Shown here: piece by piece, positions 49,554 to 54,845 of the stretch
Position numbering within the stretch: the stretch's first letter is position 1
Layout of the letters: every line of letters begins with the position of its first letter
Source: Escherichia coli
GTDB taxonomy: Bacteria > Pseudomonadota > Gammaproteobacteria > Enterobacterales > Enterobacteriaceae
Assembly: GCF_024223415.1 (NCBI RefSeq)
Contig: NZ_CP100500.1
Direction: 5' to 3' (one strand)
DNA length: 64,000 nt
Notes under the pieces: model-generated
Seen by the model: only the letters and a program-made list of their open reading frames with translations
Database searches by the model: none
What the model was told of the DNA's origin: nothing
Position numbers and translations under genes: made by a program

Positions 49554-49826
49554 ATGGACAATAACACCATTTCTCTTCAGGAGTTGCTCGACTGCATTTC
49601 CAGGCTTCGGGATGATGTTAATGCCCTTACTGTCGCATTTTCATATCTGGCATTGTCAATTCCCAGGGAACAAATGCAACCAACACTGGCATCGCTCCAG
49701 CTTGAATCACACAGCCCAAAATGGTCCCAGGAACAACAAAATTCCTTCAAGTGGCTGGTGGCATTACTGGAAGATAAATATGCTGTTAAAATTAAAATTC
49801 CGGCGGAGTCTTCAGAGAACCAGTAA
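49554..49826 (+). CDS. hypothetical protein, opposite strand within lysis cassette
   Basis: 90 aa; RBS aagagga upstream; protein-like composition while the antisense frame is low-complexity. Confidence 0.45.
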   Translation: MDNNTISLQELLDCISRLRDDVNALTVAFSYLALSIPREQMQPTLASLQLESHSPKWSQEQQNSFKWLVALLEDKYAVKIKIPAESSENQ

Positions 49827-50136
49827 TTTTTCCCGGTAGCTTTACTTTGTAAGTTATCCACACATTCTGCGCCTCTAAAATTATGGGGTGCTTTTCTGGC
49901 GACAGCTCATTCCCTTCACATAACCCGGCAGCAACATCCAGGAAGACCTGTCTGATTCTCCTTCTGGCTGCTGCCTCATAAAACTCCAGTGCAGCACCTT
50001 CAACACGATCCATAGTGATATCAAGGTCAAAAATCTCACCGTCAAAGCGTTCTTTGTCTTGTAAGGCTAAAGTTACCGCAACTTTATTCTCAAAATTACG
50101 GACTCCTTTCACAACCAGTTCGTAGACTTGAGTCAT
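49792..50136 (-). CDS. hypothetical protein between holin and endolysin (possibly DUF1327/YdfR-like, unverified)
   Basis: 114 aa; starts 5 nt after holin stop on the late-gene strand. Confidence 0.55.
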   Translation of the reverse strand: MTQVYELVVKGVRNFENKVAVTLALQDKERFDGEIFDLDITMDRVEGAALEFYEAAARRRIRQVFLDVAAGLCEGNELSPEKHPIILEAQNVWITYKVKLPGKITGSLKTPPEF

Positions 50137-50140
50137 TGGA

Positions 50141-50356
50141 TTACTCTCCTCTCTCAGCCTTACGCCTGTCTTCTTTAATCTTGAAATAAAGGTTAGTCAG
50201 ATACGTCAGCATGCCAAATACCAGACTACCCAATACACCTATTGCCGCCCACTGTGAGGGCGTGACTTTATCGAGCAACTGTAAAAACCAGTAGCCAGCA
50301 CTGCCTGCAGAGGTGCCGTAGGCGATGCCCGTTGTTAACTTATCCATGGATTTCAT
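50141..50356 (-). CDS. pinholin (phage 21 S-like), dual-start motif
   Basis: Internal start [26 protein letters not shown]... closely matches S21; two Met codons 3 codons apart; track ORF to 50440. Confidence 0.85.
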
Positions 50357-50539
50357 AGCCTCACCTCCGCAGATAACGGATGGTGTACACGGTTTGGTTC
50401 GAAGAAGGAAAAAAGTTACATTAACGTAAGGCCCGAACATCTATTCAAAAAGAAAAACGCCAGCAATTATTCTGGCGTAGCTGAAAGCATCATACAATTA
50501 TCAAATACGAAAATTACAAAATCATTAAAACGCATCACG

Positions 50540-51280
50540 TTACATCATGTCTTTTTCTAAAAAAAATCTTGATGAATATTGATGGGGAGGAACACCAAAA
50601 TATCTTCTGAAAACACTTACAAAATATGACGTGTTTTCATAACCGCATATCTCAGCAACTTTTCCAACAGAATATAAATTGTAGCTTAATAACCTTTCCG
50701 CCATCACCATTCGCTCTTCAAGAATTAACTTACTAAATGATAAGCCTTCGTGCTTTAATTTTCTTTTTAACAGGCTTTCACTCAGATACAGTCTTGAAGA
50801 TATATCACAAAGTCTCCATGCTGCAGATATATCCGTGTGAATAATAGCCTTAACTTTACTTCCTAAACTATTAAGACATCCAAATAAAAAACTTTGCACT
50901 GTTTTCTCTGAAGATAAGATAGCAAGACATGCAAGTGATATTTGATTTCTAACAAAATCCACAGTTCTGCCATCAAAATTCAAGCATGCAATCAAATTCT
51001 TTAACAATGAAAAATCTTCACATTCCACCATCAAGTATGCCGGATAAAACCTTCTTACAGAAAAAGGTGAGAGTGTGTTGTTTTTAAAGAAATCATTAAC
51101 TGTTTTCTCTTCAACATCTACGATCATTACATGATCTATATTTGATGAAAAAAAATCTTTTAAATTGTAATCAATGAGAACAGCACTTCCTTTTTTAAAC
51201 AAAATATCTTCTTTACCAATTCGGACATCAAACGAGTTCAACACCAAAATGATAGAACATATGTATGGCATATTATCCAC
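50540..51280 (-). CDS. AraC-family transcriptional regulator (prophage cargo)
   Basis: 246 aa; AT-rich; C-terminal AraC HTH (GYENTSYFVSVFRRYFGVPPHQY). Confidence 0.8.
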   Translation of the reverse strand: MDNMPYICSIILVLNSFDVRIGKEDILFKKGSAVLIDYNLKDFFSSNIDHVMIVDVEEKTVNDFFKNNTLSPFSVRRFYPAYLMVECEDFSLLKNLIACLNFDGRTVDFVRNQISLACLAILSSEKTVQSFLFGCLNSLGSKVKAIIHTDISAAWRLCDISSRLYLSESLLKRKLKHEGLSFSKLILEERMVMAERLLSYNLYSVGKVAEICGYENTSYFVSVFRRYFGVPPHQYSSRFFLEKDMM

Positions 51281-51622
51281 CTGATATCATTGGGGTTACA
51301 CCAGGTAAGTATAGGTGGAAAATCAATATTCGCCAGTTCAACAATAAGGAAAATCTCATTGCATCACAAGTATAAAATTATGTATTTAACTCACAAAGAC
51401 AAATTATTAAACCAATCTGTTATATTATATATAGCTGCGTGGAATCATAATATTATATATTTTGACTGGCATGTTTACCAACTTTAAGTTGCATCTCAAT
51501 GGTTTCTTCAGCGTAAACAGAGTTTTTATACAAACTGACACTCTGGGTATCATAGTGTAGTTTTTACGATTGTAAATATCCTGCATGCAGGAACTCATCC
51601 TTTTGGATGATATCGCATACAA

Positions 51623-52582
51623 TTAATTTACCATCAGTCTTAGAGCCAGTTCGTCCGGATAGGGATCGAAGTAATTCTGTGTAAGCAAGTAGTCATTAGG
51701 ATACTCACCCAGATAATGCTTCAGCAGAGTCAACGGCGCAAGAAGAGGTAATGTGCCAGAACGATAGTTAAGTATAACCTCGCTCAACTCTTTACGCTGG
51801 CGTGTACTTAAGTAGTTACTAAAATACCCCTGTATATGCATCAGCACATTCGTGTGATTTTTACGTGATGCAGGTTTTCTGAGAATCGCCATCAGCTTAT
51901 CACGATACACCTCAAAGTATGATTCAAGGTCCGCCCACTCGTGTATTGCAGCCACAAATGGTCCCATATCTTTATAGCCTGCCTGACTATGCGCCAACAA
52001 CTGAAGCTTATAACGACTATGAAAAGCTAATAACTCTCTTCTTGATAATTTCTCCTTGTAAAGGTGATTGAGCTCATGCAAAGCAAAAACTCTTTCAACA
52101 AAATTCTCACGAAGCACTGGATCATGTAATCGCCCATCCTCTTCAACCGGTAGCCAGGAAAACTTTTCCATCAAAGTGCTCGTAAATAGTCCCACTCCAT
52201 CTTTACGACCTCGATTACCATTTTCATCATAGACACGCACGCGCTCCATGCCACAGCTGGGAGATTTAGCACAAACCACAAACCCCGATACATCCTTTAA
52301 TTTGTCCATATAAGAACGACTAAACTCTGTCATTCTCTCTGTCACATCCTCATTCTGGTCGTGGCTGAAACACATCCGTATATTTCCTTGCGTCGAGCGC
52401 ACAAGACGTAGAGCAGGACGCGGAACTGGCAGCCCTATAGCCATTTCCGGACATACTGGTCTGAATGTTACCCATTCCACTAATTTGTCCATTAAAAAGT
52501 CAGCTCTTTTGTGACCACCATCAAAACGAACAGCAGAACCGGCCAAACAACCGCTGATTCCAATCACAGGTTTTTTTATCAT
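51623..52582 (-). CDS. DUF523 (TudS-like) / DUF1722 fusion protein
   Basis: 319 aa; N-terminal Cys-containing DUF523-like region (GISGCLAG...CPEM...SPSCG), C-terminal YbgA-like region. Confidence 0.6.
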   Translation of the reverse strand: MIKKPVIGISGCLAGSAVRFDGGHKRADFLMDKLVEWVTFRPVCPEMAIGLPVPRPALRLVRSTQGNIRMCFSHDQNEDVTERMTEFSRSYMDKLKDVSGFVVCAKSPSCGMERVRVYDENGNRGRKDGVGLFTSTLMEKFSWLPVEEDGRLHDPVLRENFVERVFALHELNHLYKEKLSRRELLAFHSRYKLQLLAHSQAGYKDMGPFVAAIHEWADLESYFEVYRDKLMAILRKPASRKNHTNVLMHIQGYFSNYLSTRQRKELSEVILNYRSGTLPLLAPLTLLKHYLGEYPNDYLLTQNYFDPYPDELALRLMVN

Positions 52583-52774
52583 ATCCTCCCCCTTGACTAA
52601 TTCATTAACACATAAACTGTGTAGTGCACGGAATAAATTGCCTTTCTGGCGTCATCACTGACAATTTTTCTGTTATGGACTATTCCTAATATAGTATGAA
52701 AGTTCTTTAAGTGATCGGTCGTAATCATCTATCTTTCATACTTACTCTCAACTATCAAAAGTACAGGATTTATT

Positions 52775-53299
52775 ATGAAGTTATGGCCTGTGTTGACTGG
52801 CATTGCACTCTCTTTCACTCTTATAGCATGTAAGGCCCCGACACCACCTAAAGGTGTGCAGCCGATTACAAATTTTGACGCCAACCGCTACCTCGGAAAA
52901 TGGTATGAAATAGCTCGCCTCGAGAACCGGTTCGAACGTGGTCTGGAACAGGTCAGCGCTACTTATGGAAAACGGAACGACGGAGGGATTCGTGTACTTA
53001 ACCGTGGATACGATCCAACGAAAAATAAATGGAGCGAGAGCGAAGGTAAAGCATACTTTACTGGAGATACTAAAACTGCAGCGTTGAAGGTTTCGTTTTT
53101 TGGCCCCTTCTATGGTGGCTATAATGTAATCAAACTGGATGATGAGTATAAGTATGCTCTTGTCAGTGGTCCGAACAGAGAATACCTATGGATTCTGGCA
53201 AGGACCCCAACTATTCCAGATAAAGTAAAAGCAGACTATGTGCGAACCGCTCAAAAGTTGGGATTCAATGTCAATGAATTATTATGGGTTAAACAATAA
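52775..53299 (+). CDS. bacterial lipocalin (Blc-like outer membrane lipoprotein)
   Basis: 174 aa; lipobox LIAC; strong resemblance to E. coli Blc (NFDANRYLGKWYEIARLENRFERGLE, GKAYFTG, KVSFFGPFYGGYNVI, YLWILARTP); opposite strand to late genes. Confidence 0.85.
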   Translation: MKLWPVLTGIALSFTLIACKAPTPPKGVQPITNFDANRYLGKWYEIARLENRFERGLEQVSATYGKRNDGGIRVLNRGYDPTKNKWSESEGKAYFTGDTKTAALKVSFFGPFYGGYNVIKLDDEYKYALVSGPNREYLWILARTPTIPDKVKADYVRTAQKLGFNVNELLWVKQ

Positions 53300-53327: not shown

Positions 53328-53354
53328 AAAAAAACCAGCCTTTGGGGAGGCTGG
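53328..53354 (-). terminator. putative intrinsic terminator downstream of Q (tR'-like candidate)
   Basis: 6-bp GC stem (ccagcc/ggctgg) with 8-nt loop, followed on the minus strand by a 7-nt U run. Confidence 0.4.
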
Positions 53355-53454
53355 CTAAATCAGAAAACAAGCTGTTATATGATAATAACTACGTTGCGAT
53401 TCCAACATTTAAAATGTTAGACTAATGACAATCAGACAGCAACTTTTCCTTTAA

Positions 53455-53847
53455 TTATTTCGGACAATCAGCATCCATCTCCAATCGGAGATCCAACACC
53501 ATCAGCATGCCCTCCACTACGCCCTCAGCTTTCTGGAGCATCCTGCCAACCCAACAATCAGATCGCCCATGCTTACGTGCAAGCGCCATAAAAGTCATGC
53601 CGCCGACATAATAGTCCACCAATAAATCATGCAAATCGCTGTTGTTTTTTTTCAGGCGAGCCATACATCCACAAATGATCATCGCGTCATCGTCACAACA
53701 TTGCGGGCGAGATTTTACTTTTGAAGGAATTAATCCCTTAAAACCGGCGGCAATGGACGACCAGGTCACATCTTCATGATTATTAGCCGCCCACGCTCCC
53801 CAACGCTCAAGAACCATCTGAATATCACGCATCAACTTTCTCCACAA
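53455..53847 (-). CDS. late-gene antiterminator Q
   Basis: 130 aa; Cys-rich zinc-binding region; position upstream of lysis genes. Confidence 0.75.
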
Positions 53848-53849
53848 AA

Positions 53850-54845
53850 TCAGGCCAGCACACCAATCGCCAGCGCACGATCGATAAAACGAAATATCAG
53901 CTCCAGCTGGGAGCCATACTTCTCTTCGAATGCCACATTATCCGCATGCAGCTCGTCGTGATGCTTTCTGCACAAAGGCAACACAAAGAGGTCATGCGCT
54001 TTTGTCCCCATTCCACCCTGACCGTGGCCTATCAGGTGGTGGGGATCATCAGCAGGTTTTCCACAACATGCGCACGGCTGCGTCTTAACCCATCGCGTGT
54101 ACTTTTCATTAACCCAGCGGCGACGTTTTGGGCGTAACATAAAAGAGTCCGGCGACTCCGGATCCACTTTCAGCGCCAACACCTTTTTCGCTTTATCCTG
54201 GATGATGCTGGTGGCAGGAACCGAAGGCACCAGGTCACTTTCCCGGGTGACAGACGGCACAACAGGCTTCGGTAATCTCAGTGCCTTACGGGCTGCACTT
54301 TCCGGTAAGGCATCCGCCAGATCATTACGAATCAGCCACCAGCACAGTTCCGGCATTGTCACAACGTGACTGTCATCAAAACCGAGATCCCGACGCACAA
54401 CAGACAACACCCAGCGGGCACAGTTATCCGTTGCCATTGATTCCAGCCGTTCCGTGAACTGATCGCGCAGTTGGTTATCGCAGTGCCAGCACAGACGGAT
54501 TGCGCCCGGCGCGTGTCGCATTGTGGTCATGTTCTCGCTGTGCCAGTCGGAATGAGGCCACTGGCAGCCTTTTTCACGAAGTAACCAGCTTTCAAGACAT
54601 TCCACGCCACCAGCACGACGGATCACTGCCTCATTGCGGAACACGGCCCGAACGGCAGGATCATCCGCCAGCGGTTGTGATGCAGCCGGAACGGCACCAC
54701 TGGCAAAAGATGAATAACGTTCCGGCTCAGGCTCCAGCAGGACACGCCCCTGCATAAACAGGGGCATCAGCTCTGAACCTGGCCTGAACAATACGATCCC
54801 CATACGCGGGGCAATTTCAGGGGTCAGTAGTGCTCTCACGGTCAC
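53850..54845 (-). CDS. DUF968-like nin-region protein with C-terminal zinc/HNH-like motifs
   Basis: 331 aa; C-terminal [14 protein letters not shown]...CRKHHDELH. Confidence 0.6.

What the first reader, a model, noticed from the sequence alone, without database searches (positions are those of the whole stretch)
51623..52582. DUF523 (TudS-like) / DUF1722 fusion protein as phage cargo between Q and the lysis genes
The N-terminal half has the Cys pattern of DUF523, the family of 4Fe-4S thiouracil desulfidases, fused to a YbgA-like DUF1722 domain. It sits at the Q-to-holin position, where lambdoid prophages carry high-expression cargo such as stx or nmpC. A thio-nucleobase-modifying enzyme in a phage late region could act on tRNA or nucleotide pools.
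Basis: partly seen in the sequence, partly recalled or inferred. Interest (0 to 1): 0.5.

Follow-up and report, generated by a model that had tools for sequence, protein, structure and literature searches.

The report
Prophage copy of tRNA desulfidase RudS
The gene is a prophage-borne copy of RudS, an iron-sulfur enzyme that removes the UV-sensitive sulfur mark (4-thiouridine) from tRNA; a 93%-identical phage version was tested experimentally in 2024, so the call is correct but not new.

Summary
The ORF is real: window 51623-52582, minus strand, 319 aa. It has Pfam 2-thiour_desulf (DUF523/TudS) at residues 7-149 and DUF1722 at residues 192-309. It is 93% identical, without gaps, to gp66 of Escherichia phage 1H12. 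That protein is "RudS_vir" in Jamontas et al. 2024 (NAR, PMC11417400), where its overexpression lowered tRNA 4-thiouridine in E. coli.

The cluster and catalytic residues C12, C44, C110, E46, R55, S107 and S109 are all present. Each is conserved in at least 111 of 119 diverse homologues. The AlphaFold model (pLDDT 97) matches TudS crystal structures.

The gene lies in a three-gene cargo cassette of blc (opposite strand), rudS and an AT-rich AraC-like gene. The cassette sits between antiterminator Q with a tR'-like terminator and the holin. This is the slot that holds nmpC in DLP12.

- The cassette occurs in 12 sequenced coliphages and in 1135 of 5426 complete E. coli genomes.
- rudS is under purifying selection (dN/dS 0.10-0.19).
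- The blc-rudS pair mirrors a chromosomal arrangement in Enterobacter and Citrobacter.
- A second phage lineage carries rudS in the nin region.

What the enzyme does for the phage or the lysogen remains untested.

The parts
51623..52582 (-). rudS: 319-aa fusion of a TudS-type [4Fe-4S] desulfidase domain (res 7-149) and a DUF1722 tRNA-binding domain (res 192-309)
   Evidence: ORF; Pfam; 93% identity to 1H12 gp66 = RudS_vir (paper); catalytic residues conserved; AF2 pLDDT 97 and TudS fold match; dN/dS 0.10-0.19
52583..52774 (.). 192-nt divergent intergenic region between blc and rudS. It holds only weak sigma-70-like matches. The 43-codon ORF at 52597-52728 inside it is not a gene.
   Evidence: Promoter scan gave a 9/12 match at 52751-52724. 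orf43 has dN/dS 0.76-1.4, an internal stop in other alleles and no PHROG hit.
52775..53299 (+). blc: outer-membrane lipocalin lipoprotein, transcribed divergently from rudS and antisense to the phage late transcript
   Evidence: NCBIfam Blc 316 bits, above its cutoff of 267; phrog_2809; 60% identity to K-12 Blc but 82% to the rudS-linked Blc of Enterobacter cloacae; dN/dS 0.065-0.23
53333..53356 (-). tR'-like intrinsic terminator just downstream of Q: 9-bp stem followed by U7
   Evidence: Terminator scan; fold -16.3 kcal/mol, z -3.8. Its role as tR' is inferred.
53357..53454 (-). Candidate late promoter pR' region. It contains the motif ATATAACAG, shared with the DLP12-type Q-nmpC region.
   Evidence: Alignment with 434B/DLP12, 1H12 and IdasGreatGrand. 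Promoter function is inferred, not shown.
53455..53832 (-). Antiterminator Q of the DLP12 QuuD/YbcQ type. The ORF list extends it to a TTG at 53847.
   Evidence: phrog_79 E 1.3e-51; annotated as Q in related phages and genomes; 86-87% nt identity to the Q of 434B/DLP12
51272..51622 (-). AT-rich spacer between rudS and the AraC-like gene. It holds the two best sigma-70-like sites of the region.
   Evidence: 10/12 matches at 51576-51549 and 51481-51452; GC 30-35%
50540..51271 (-). AraC/XylS-family regulator resembling YdeO/GadX, about 31% GC. It is the third cassette gene and is often frameshifted in relatives.
   Evidence: NCBIfam YdeO 127 bits, below its cutoff of 348; phrog_1450; GC; frameshifted in L003, L012, L014, L016 and L018; present in 1033 of 5426 E. 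coli genomes
50457..50478 (-). Intrinsic-terminator-like hairpin closing the cassette, just upstream of the holin
   Evidence: Terminator scan. The fold of -12.1 kcal/mol has z -1.6, so support is weaker.
50141..50356 (-). Class II holin, EssD-like, 71 aa from the internal Met. It is the first gene of the lysis cassette and marks the downstream edge of the cargo slot.
   Evidence: phrog_9876 and phrog_20 cover residues 26/48-99 of the 99-aa ORF; annotated holin/essD in relatives

Best explanation
The ORF encodes a prophage-borne RudS. This is a monomeric enzyme in which a TudS-type domain holds a [4Fe-4S] cluster on three cysteines (C12, C44, C110). The fourth iron is left free to bind the sulfur of 4-thiouridine. 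E46, positioned by R55, S107 and S109, activates water to replace that sulfur with oxygen. The C-terminal DUF1722 domain docks the tRNA. The net reaction converts s4U at position 8(9) of host tRNAs back to uridine. The gene is one of three cargo genes (blc, rudS and an AraC-like regulator) sitting between the Q/pR'-tR' region and the holin of a lambdoid E. coli prophage. Q-modified RNA polymerase should therefore read through it after induction, and it may also have weak promoters of its own. The most likely biological effect is a lower s4U level in the lysogen or the induced cell. That would blunt the UVA-triggered tRNA cross-linking, growth delay and stringent response. What is shown: sequence, architecture, catalytic residues, fold, near-identity to a tested enzyme, cassette structure, prevalence and purifying selection. 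What is inferred: activity of this exact allele, when it is expressed, and the fitness benefit.
For: - **Architecture:** PF04463 plus PF08349.
- **Link to a tested enzyme:** 298 of 319 residues are identical, with no gaps, to Escherichia phage 1H12 gp66. That protein was cloned as RudS_vir and lowered tRNA s4U when overexpressed in E. coli. All six RudS orthologues tested gave 4.7- to 26-fold reductions.
- **Essential residues:** mutagenesis of RudS_KT showed that the Cys ligands, Glu51, Ser111, Ser113 and Arg60 are essential. The equivalent residues C12, C44, C110, E46, S107, S109 and R55 are present here, each conserved in at least 111 of 119 homologues of 35-93% identity.
- **Fold:** the AF2 model has pLDDT 97 and pTM 0.93. 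Its N-terminal domain matches TudS structures 6Z92/6Z93/6Z96/6ZW9 at probability 1.0 and TM 0.72-0.77.
- **Biochemistry of the family:** purified RudS_KT binds tRNA and removes about 80-95% of s4U in vitro. Its overexpression cut the UVA growth delay from about 105 to about 60 min.
- **Position:** the gene order and terminators come, and DLP12/434B carries nmpC in the same slot.
- **Selection:** dN/dS is 0.10-0.19, and the ORF is intact in 43 of 44 evaluable loci while the neighbouring AraC-like gene decays.
- **Prevalence:** 1135 of 5426 complete E. coli genomes carry it.
- **Second lineage:** another lambdoid lineage carries rudS in the nin region.
Against: No assay exists for this allele. 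In the paper, RudS_vir was less active on tRNA than RudS_ST despite comparable protein levels. It also gave the shortest lag on 4-thiouracil among the RudS enzymes, so its substrate preference may be somewhat relaxed. No convincing promoter was found directly upstream of rudS; the best match was 9/12, and the number of promoter-like sites in the region is not above the shuffled expectation. pR' is assigned only from a short shared motif. The UVA phenotype was shown only for RudS_KT under strong overexpression. Expression from a single prophage copy may be too low to change s4U levels.
Confidence: 0.85

Rival explanations
1. RudS serves the phage's lytic programme rather than the lysogen. It is transcribed with the late genes here, or with the early nin genes in the second lineage. 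[quoted passage not shown] This overlaps with the best explanation on enzymology and differs only on who benefits and when.
For: The gene lies downstream of Q and the tR'-like terminator, on the late-transcript strand. A second lambdoid lineage places rudS on the early-operon strand, between the replication genes and RusA-DUF968-Q. The two phage clades are separate in the tree, which suggests repeated recruitment. No strong private promoter was found. The s4U cross-link is known to cause growth delay and ppGpp accumulation.
Against: Both the Q-S slot and the nin region are classic moron sites, so position does not discriminate. RudS cannot repair cross-links that have already formed. Late expression leaves little time for Fe-S enzyme maturation and tRNA turnover. 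There are no expression or burst-size data.
Confidence: 0.3
2. The main substrate is a free thiolated base or nucleotide (4-thiouracil, 4-thio-UMP), as for stand-alone TudS. The gene would then be a salvage or detoxification enzyme acting on nucleotide pools.
For: The catalytic domain is TudS-like. RudS_vir showed the shortest lag of all RudS enzymes on 4-thiouracil in a uracil auxotroph.
Against: None of the RudS variants supported growth the way TudS does, and none grew on 2-thiouracil. Stand-alone TudS did not lower tRNA s4U, whereas every RudS did. The DUF1722 domain is needed for tRNA binding and is intact and conserved here.
Confidence: 0.08
3. The gene is a hitch-hiking passenger. It was captured together with blc from an enterobacterial chromosome, has no selected function in the phage, and is carried along by the cassette.
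For: The divergent blc-rudS pair is a chromosomal arrangement in Enterobacter, Leclercia, Citrobacter sedlakii and others, so en-bloc capture is likely. blc alone was earlier noted as a common lambda moron.
Against: dN/dS is 0.10-0.19 across alleles with dS up to 0.30. rudS is intact in 43 of 44 loci while the adjacent AraC-like gene is frameshifted in several. A second lineage carries rudS without blc.
Confidence: 0.05
4. RudS is a counter-defence or host-takeover factor. Removing s4U8 would alter tRNA stability or its recognition by tRNA-targeting nucleases or other immunity systems.
For: This rests on indirect evidence only. RudS_KT overexpression roughly halved the abundance of particular Ser and Tyr tRNAs, and loss of s4U triggers degradosome decay of such tRNAs in Vibrio cholerae.
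Against: No known defence system is reported to depend on s4U. No anti-defence genes were seen next to it. The window holds no phage tRNA genes that would compensate.
Confidence: 0.03

Closest known systems
RudS_vir (Escherichia phage 1H12 gp66, H3V29_gp66; Jamontas et al. 2024, PMC11417400)
   Same: Same length (319 aa) and 93% identity without gaps. Same Cys12/Cys44/Cys110 numbering. Same Q-blc-rudS-araC-holin cassette.
   Different: 21 substitutions, about 8% nucleotide divergence and dS about 0.30. The surrounding prophage differs: here DUF968/KilA-N lies upstream and there is a different lysis cassette containing orf114, whereas 1H12 has ylcG-rusA and essD-type lysis genes.
RudS_KT (Pseudomonas putida PP_0741), the biochemically characterised prototype
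   Same: Same two-domain architecture. The ligands and catalytic Glu/Ser/Ser/Arg sit at the same spacing from the Cys residues.
   Different: It is chromosomal and sits in a LitR/photolyase light-responsive operon. The representative homologues used here share only about 35-56% identity with the window protein. I could not retrieve the KT sequence itself, so the mapping is by spacing and by invariant alignment columns.
Chromosomal enterobacterial RudS (Salmonella ORF319/STM1389 = RudS_ST; Enterobacter, Citrobacter and Klebsiella 319-aa proteins)
   Same: Same 319-aa length class and 66-77% identity. In many genera it lies next to a blc paralogue in the same divergent orientation.
   Different: In Enterobacter an MlrA-like MerR regulator and a transthyretin-like gene sit between blc and rudS. 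The phage cassette lacks them, so the presumed MerR control is lost. In Citrobacter braakii rudS ends a CFA-synthase/DUF1365/amine-oxidase operon.
TudS (stand-alone DUF523 thiouracil desulfidase, PDB 6Z92)
   Same: Fold of residues about 6-150 (TM 0.72-0.77, 26-27% identity) and a three-Cys [4Fe-4S] site.
   Different: TudS has no DUF1722 domain, acts on free 4-/2-thiouracil, and does not lower tRNA s4U.
E. coli YbgA (stand-alone DUF1722, upstream of photolyase phr)
   Same: The C-terminal residues 160-315 match the YbgA model (190.8 bits). RefSeq names the window protein 'YbgA family protein'.
   Different: The score is below the YbgA equivalog cutoff of 237. YbgA lacks the catalytic domain and had no effect on s4U.
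Cargo in the Q-to-S slot of lambdoid prophages (nmpC in DLP12; stx in Stx phages)
   Same: Same slot, downstream of a DLP12-type Q and upstream of the holin. The first cargo gene is antisense, as nmpC is.
   Different: The content is a tRNA eraser, a lipocalin and a regulator rather than a porin or toxin. No tRNA genes accompany it.

Membership tests
RudS (TudS-DUF1722 tRNA 4-thiouridine desulfidase) | Single polypeptide with an N-terminal TudS/DUF523 domain fused to a C-terminal DUF1722 domain | tested here: met
   PF04463 at residues 7-149 (1.6e-39) and PF08349 at residues 192-309 (2.2e-40)
RudS (TudS-DUF1722 tRNA 4-thiouridine desulfidase) | Three conserved Cys ligands for a [4Fe-4S] cluster with one free iron | tested here: met
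   C12, C44 and C110 are present and conserved in 118, 117 and 116 of 119 homologues. The numbering is the same as for RudS_vir in Table 1 of the paper.
RudS (TudS-DUF1722 tRNA 4-thiouridine desulfidase) | Catalytic Glu plus its stabilising Ser, Ser and Arg (RudS_KT E51, S111, S113, R60) | tested here: met
   E46, S107, S109 and R55 lie at the same offsets from the Cys ligands and are conserved in 111-118 of 119 homologues
RudS (TudS-DUF1722 tRNA 4-thiouridine desulfidase) | TudS fold of the catalytic domain | tested here: met
   The AF2 model has pLDDT 97. Foldseek hits 6Z92/6Z93/6Z96/6ZW9 at probability 1.0 and TMt 0.72-0.77.
RudS (TudS-DUF1722 tRNA 4-thiouridine desulfidase) | Close homology to an experimentally validated member | tested here: met
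   93% identity over all 319 residues to RudS_vir, which lowered tRNA s4U in vivo
RudS (TudS-DUF1722 tRNA 4-thiouridine desulfidase) | Binds a [4Fe-4S] cluster and converts tRNA s4U8 to U | not testable with these tools
   This needs anaerobic purification and LC-MS of tRNA nucleosides. It has been shown for orthologues only.
TudS (stand-alone thiouracil / 4-thio-UMP desulfidase) | Single-domain protein of about 150 aa acting on free thiolated bases or nucleotides | tested here: not met
   The protein is 319 aa with an added DUF1722 domain. RudS enzymes, RudS_vir included, did not rescue a uracil auxotroph the way TudS does.
YbgA (NCBIfam PRK10167, stand-alone DUF1722) | Whole protein scores above the curated equivalog cutoff (237 bits) | tested here: not met
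   190.8 bits, covering only residues 160-315. The RefSeq name 'YbgA family protein' therefore understates the protein.
Lambdoid late-region cargo (moron in the Q-S slot) | Located between Q/pR'-tR' and the holin, and dispensable for the phage core functions | tested here: met
   Gene order. The same Q type carries nmpC instead in DLP12/434B. The cassette sits in the same slot in every clade-A locus where flanks were available.
Lambdoid late-region cargo (moron in the Q-S slot) | Own promoter and terminator allowing expression from the repressed prophage | tested here: inconclusive
   A terminator-like hairpin closes the cassette. Upstream of rudS there is only a 9/12 promoter match, and the site count is not above shuffles. 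The better sites (10/12) precede the AraC-like gene.

The most novel reading that the evidence does not exclude
RudS is a function selected by phages, not just a chromosomal gene that wandered in. Lambdoid phages appear to have recruited it twice: the E. coli Q-S cassette with blc, and the nin region of Citrobacter/Salmonella-type prophages. In both it is kept under purifying selection. The purpose would be to erase the host's tRNA UVA sensor. Sunlight or UV, which triggers induction via SOS, would then no longer impose the s4U-dependent growth delay and stringent response on phage protein synthesis. As a corollary, about one fifth of E. coli strains would differ from K-12 in near-UV physiology because of a prophage.
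Probability: 0.25. Interest if true: 0.55.

Novelty: already known. Interest (0 to 1): 0.22.

Why it matters
The enzyme family was named and characterised in 2024, and a phage orthologue 93% identical to this protein was among those tested. The identification therefore adds no new biology.

Three things from this analysis go beyond the published work:

- **Prevalence:** the RudS paper treats E. coli as lacking RudS. In fact 1135 of 5426 complete E. coli genomes (21%) carry it on prophages. BL21, the strain lineage of the paper's BL21(DE3) assay host, has an IS3-truncated remnant.
- **Origin and context:** the gene travels as a blc-rudS-araC cassette in the Q-to-holin slot. Its blc-rudS core mirrors a chromosomal arrangement in Enterobacter and Citrobacter.
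- **Second lineage:** another phage lineage carries rudS in the nin region.

Why temperate phages keep a tRNA-modification eraser is an open question. It could be tested with a lysogen, a deletion mutant and a UVA lamp.

Tried and rejected
1. **The 43-codon ORF at 52597-52728.** It is annotated in phage IdasGreatGrand, and I considered it as a leader or regulator of rudS. I rejected it. Its dN/dS is 0.76-1.4, other alleles have an internal stop, and it has no PHROG hit.
2. **DNA-level search for a recent donor of the cassette.** blastn against 12 chromosomal or prophage loci gave only 67-72% identity, confined to the coding regions, with no alignable intergenic DNA. No recent donor was found.
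3. **Whether the AraC-like gene is PsrA, PsrB or PatE of EHEC.** The review gives their locus tags, but the primary paper PMC4288888 is not held. Megablast of the gene showed no recognisable O157 strain among the 45 sampled rows. This is left unresolved, and I do not call it a Psr.
4. **Phage tRNA genes or structured RNAs near the gene.** None were found.
5. **A structural match for the DUF1722 domain.** There is no solved structure with E below 0.25.
6. **Literature on the prophage context of DUF1722/YbgA.** Only blc is mentioned as a lambda moron.
7. **A literature link between s4U growth delay and SOS or prophage induction.** Nothing usable turned up in the held library. That part of the novel reading rests on inference.

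Full report
**The observation**

The window has an uninterrupted ORF at 51623-52582 on the minus strand. It is 319 aa, starts with ATG and is preceded by GGAGG. Pfam assigns residues 7-149 to PF04463 "2-thiouracil desulfurase" (the former DUF523; E 1.6e-39). It assigns residues 192-309 to PF08349 DUF1722 (E 2.2e-40). NCBIfam matches only the C-terminal half, to the YbgA model. The score of 190.8 bits is below the cutoff of 237.

**What the protein is**

The fusion of these two domains has been named RudS. Jamontas et al. 2024 (NAR 52:10543, PMC11417400) showed that RudS proteins remove the 4-thiouridine (s4U) modification from tRNA.

- Overexpressing six orthologues in E. coli lowered tRNA s4U 4.7- to 26-fold. 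[quoted passage not shown]
- Purified RudS_KT binds tRNA and removes about 80-95% of s4U in vitro.
- Mutation of the Cys ligands, Glu51, Ser111, Ser113 or Arg60 abolishes activity.
- RudS_KT overexpression shortens the UVA growth delay from about 105 to about 60 min.

One of the six tested enzymes, "RudS_vir", is gp66 of Escherichia phage 1H12, with ligands Cys12, Cys44 and Cys110. The window protein is 298/319 (93%) identical to that protein, with no gaps, so the residue numbering transfers directly.

I checked the functional residues in three ways.

- **Presence.** The window protein has C12, C44, E46, R55, S107, S109 and C110.
- **Conservation.** I aligned 119 full-length homologues of 35-93% identity, taken from a search of 1.84 billion representative proteins. 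These positions are conserved in 111-118 sequences. The other two cysteines either vary (C104) or fall outside the nearly invariant columns (C71).
- **Structure.** An AlphaFold2 model built on that alignment has mean pLDDT 97 and pTM 0.93. Its N-terminal domain matches the TudS crystal structures 6Z92/6Z93/6Z96/6ZW9 with probability 1.0 and TM 0.72-0.77. A sequence search also finds 6Z92. The helical DUF1722 domain has no solved counterpart.

Every sequence- and structure-level criterion for RudS membership is met. The catalytic activity of this exact allele cannot be tested here.

**Genomic context**

Read along the minus strand, the order of features is as follows:

| Feature | Coordinates | Notes |
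|---|---|---|
| DUF968/HNH gene | 53850-54845 | |
| Antiterminator Q | 53455-53832 | phrog_79 |
| Intrinsic-terminator hairpin | 53356-53333 | 9-bp stem, U7; -16.3 kcal/mol, z -3.8 |
| blc | 52775-53299 | plus strand; Blc model above cutoff |
| Spacer | 52583-52774 | 192 nt |
| rudS | 51623-52582 | |
| AT-rich spacer | 51272-51622 | about 350 nt |
| AraC-family gene | 50540-51271 | resembles YdeO/GadX; about 31% GC |
| Second terminator-like hairpin | 50478-50457 | |
| Holin, orf114, endolysin | 50356 down to 48915 | |

The Q is the DLP12 QuuD type. It is 86-87% identical in DNA to the Q of phage 434B, which acquired the DLP12 region. That element carries nmpC in the same slot, also antisense.

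Homology between the two kinds of element fades near the 3' end of Q. A short motif (ATATAACAG) is shared about 80 nt downstream of the Q stop, and each element then has its own strong hairpin with a U-run. I read this as pR' followed by tR', which is inference. If that is right, the three cargo genes lie inside the late transcription unit, as stx does in Stx phages.

I could not find a convincing promoter directly upstream of rudS. The best match was 9/12, and the count for the region is not above shuffled controls. The two best sites (10/12) precede the AraC-like gene.

The 43-codon ORF between blc and rudS, annotated in one phage record, is not a gene. Its dN/dS is 0.76-1.4, other alleles have an internal stop, and it has no PHROG hit.

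**Distribution**

The Q-blc-rudS-araC-holin cassette occurs in the following collections:

- 12 sequenced coliphages: IdasGreatGrand at 99% identity, and the infant-gut Lambda_1H12 group at 90%;
- 36 IMG/VR viral contigs, always in the same slot where flanks are available;
- 1135 of 5426 complete E. coli genomes, 1063 of them full length.

The RudS paper states that E. coli lacks RudS. That holds for K-12 but not for the species. E. coli BL21, the lineage of the paper's assay host BL21(DE3), has Q-blc followed by a rudS remnant cut after codon 49 by IS3. Mathieu et al. 2020 had already listed blc as a moron in more than half of their lambda phages.

**Selection**

Between the three allele groups, rudS has dN/dS 0.10-0.19 with dS up to 0.30. 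The values are similar for blc (0.065-0.23) and Q. rudS is intact in 43 of 44 evaluable loci and blc in 35 of 36. The AraC-like gene is frameshifted in five near-identical cassettes. rudS is therefore maintained and is not decaying cargo.

**Origin**

The nearest non-E. coli proteins are 319-aa RudS proteins of Citrobacter, Serratia, Enterobacter, Klebsiella and relatives, at 66-77% identity.

In 21 of 41 species-representative genome loci, a blc gene lies upstream of rudS in the same divergent orientation. In 20 of them it is within 2.1 kb. In Citrobacter sedlakii the spacing (187 nt) is almost the same as in the phage (192 nt). In Enterobacter an MlrA-like MerR regulator and a transthyretin-like gene lie between the two genes.

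The phage Blc is only 60% identical to E. coli's own Blc but 82% identical to the rudS-linked Blc of Enterobacter cloacae. The blc-rudS core was therefore most likely captured as a unit from such a locus, without its MerR regulator. DNA identity to all sampled chromosomes is only 67-72% and confined to coding sequence, so the donor is unsampled or the capture is old. In Citrobacter braakii one rudS copy ends an operon of SnoaL, SDR, amine oxidase, DUF1365, CFA synthase, DUF2878 and DUF3833 genes. The RudS paper reports that RudS genes often lie in light-responsive operons.

**A second phage lineage**

Six IMG/VR contigs, a Citrobacter sp. MGH106 prophage and a prophage remnant next to ttcA in Salmonella Derby carry a different rudS, 73-74% identical to the window's. 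They have no blc.

In the annotated example this rudS lies on the early-operon strand, between the replication genes and RusA-DUF968-Q. That is the nin region. In a neighbour-joining tree this clade sits next to a Citrobacter braakii/Raoultella group at 87-88% identity, far from the E. coli phage clade. That suggests two independent recruitments, although the tree is not bootstrapped.

**How it most likely works**

The enzymology follows from the family. Three cysteines hold a [4Fe-4S] cluster whose free iron binds the thione sulfur of s4U8. Glu46, oriented by Arg55, Ser107 and Ser109, activates water, and uridine is regenerated. The DUF1722 domain contacts the anticodon arm of the tRNA.

The biology is inferred. 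Lower s4U should reduce the UVA-induced s4U8-C13 cross-linking that causes uncharged tRNA, ppGpp accumulation and growth delay. The data cannot say whether this benefits the lysogen (lysogenic conversion, alongside a lipocalin and a stress-type regulator) or the induced phage (translation kept running in sunlight). I rank them as overlapping alternatives.

A salvage role on free thiouracil is unlikely but not excluded. RudS_vir had the shortest lag on 4-thiouracil among the RudS enzymes and somewhat lower tRNA activity. A pure passenger role is contradicted by the selection data. An anti-defence role has no support.

**Verdict**

The function of this protein family, including a near-identical phage member, is already published, so novelty is low. 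The modest new points are the prevalence in E. coli, the cassette's structure and chromosomal origin, and the second phage lineage. The open question is what a tRNA-modification eraser does for a temperate phage.

Noticed in passing
window 50540-51271 (-), with spacer 51272-51622: AraC/XylS-family regulator at about 31% GC. Its best NCBIfam hit is YdeO at 127 bits (cutoff 348), followed by GadX and HilD; it also matches phrog_1450. It has the best promoter-like sites of the region, is found in 1033 of 5426 E. coli genomes, and is frameshifted in several otherwise near-identical cassettes. It resembles the prophage AraC-like acid-resistance regulators (PsrA/PsrB/PatE, AppY) in kind, but identity to them was not established.
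   Followed up: partly
window 52775-53299 (+): Second, phage-borne blc (outer-membrane lipocalin). It is 60% identical to E. coli K-12 Blc but 82% identical to the rudS-linked Blc of Enterobacter cloacae. It lies antisense to the presumed late transcript and is under purifying selection (dN/dS 0.065-0.23).
   Followed up: yes
window 52597-52728 (-): 43-codon ORF annotated as a CDS in phage IdasGreatGrand. It is very likely non-coding: dN/dS 0.76-1.4, an internal stop in other alleles, no PHROG hit.
   Followed up: yes
L043-L048, L063 (Citrobacter sp. MGH106), L007/L008 (Salmonella Derby): A separate rudS clade, 73-74% identical to the window's, sits in the nin region of lambdoid prophages, between the replication genes and RusA-DUF968-Q, with no blc. 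In Salmonella Derby it survives in a remnant next to ttcA (a tRNA 2-thiocytidine synthesis gene) and a DUF1367 gene.
   Followed up: partly
L093 (E. coli BL21, NZ_CP053601.1 1558651-1558797): BL21 carries Q and an intact blc, followed by a rudS fragment truncated after codon 49 by IS3. BL21(DE3) was the host used to measure s4U loss in the RudS paper.
   Followed up: yes
window 53357-53454 and L092 2900-3095: The motif ATATAACAG is shared between this phage group and the DLP12/434B Q-nmpC region, about 80 nt after the Q stop. Each element then has its own strong hairpin with a U-run. This is a candidate pR'/tR' pair for QuuD-type Q proteins, and homology otherwise breaks near the 3' end of Q.
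   Followed up: partly
window 50141-50440 (-): The mechanical ORF for the holin is 99 aa, but the PHROG holin models cover only residues 26/48-99 and relatives are annotated at 71 aa. The true start is probably the internal ATG at 50356 (MKSMDK...).
   Followed up: partly
window 49554-50136: A 114-aa ORF of unknown function (49792-50136, phrog_406/2091) sits between the holin and the endolysin. A further 343-nt stretch before the endolysin holds overlapping 90-aa (+) and 94-aa (-) ORFs. This is an unusual insertion inside a lysis cassette.
   Followed up: no
L004-L006 (Citrobacter braakii): Chromosomal rudS is the last gene of an operon of SnoaL, SDR, FAD amine oxidase, DUF1365, cyclopropane-fatty-acid-synthase-like, DUF2878 and DUF3833 genes. 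C. braakii ATCC 51113 has two rudS copies (L051 and L053).
   Followed up: no
L003 24432-26363 (E. coli BEC1-S17-ESBL-07 prophage): A different prophage carrying an identical rudS cassette also has a SIR2-family gene in its nin region, which is a likely anti-phage defence cargo. This shows that the cassette moves between otherwise different lambdoid backbones.
   Followed up: no
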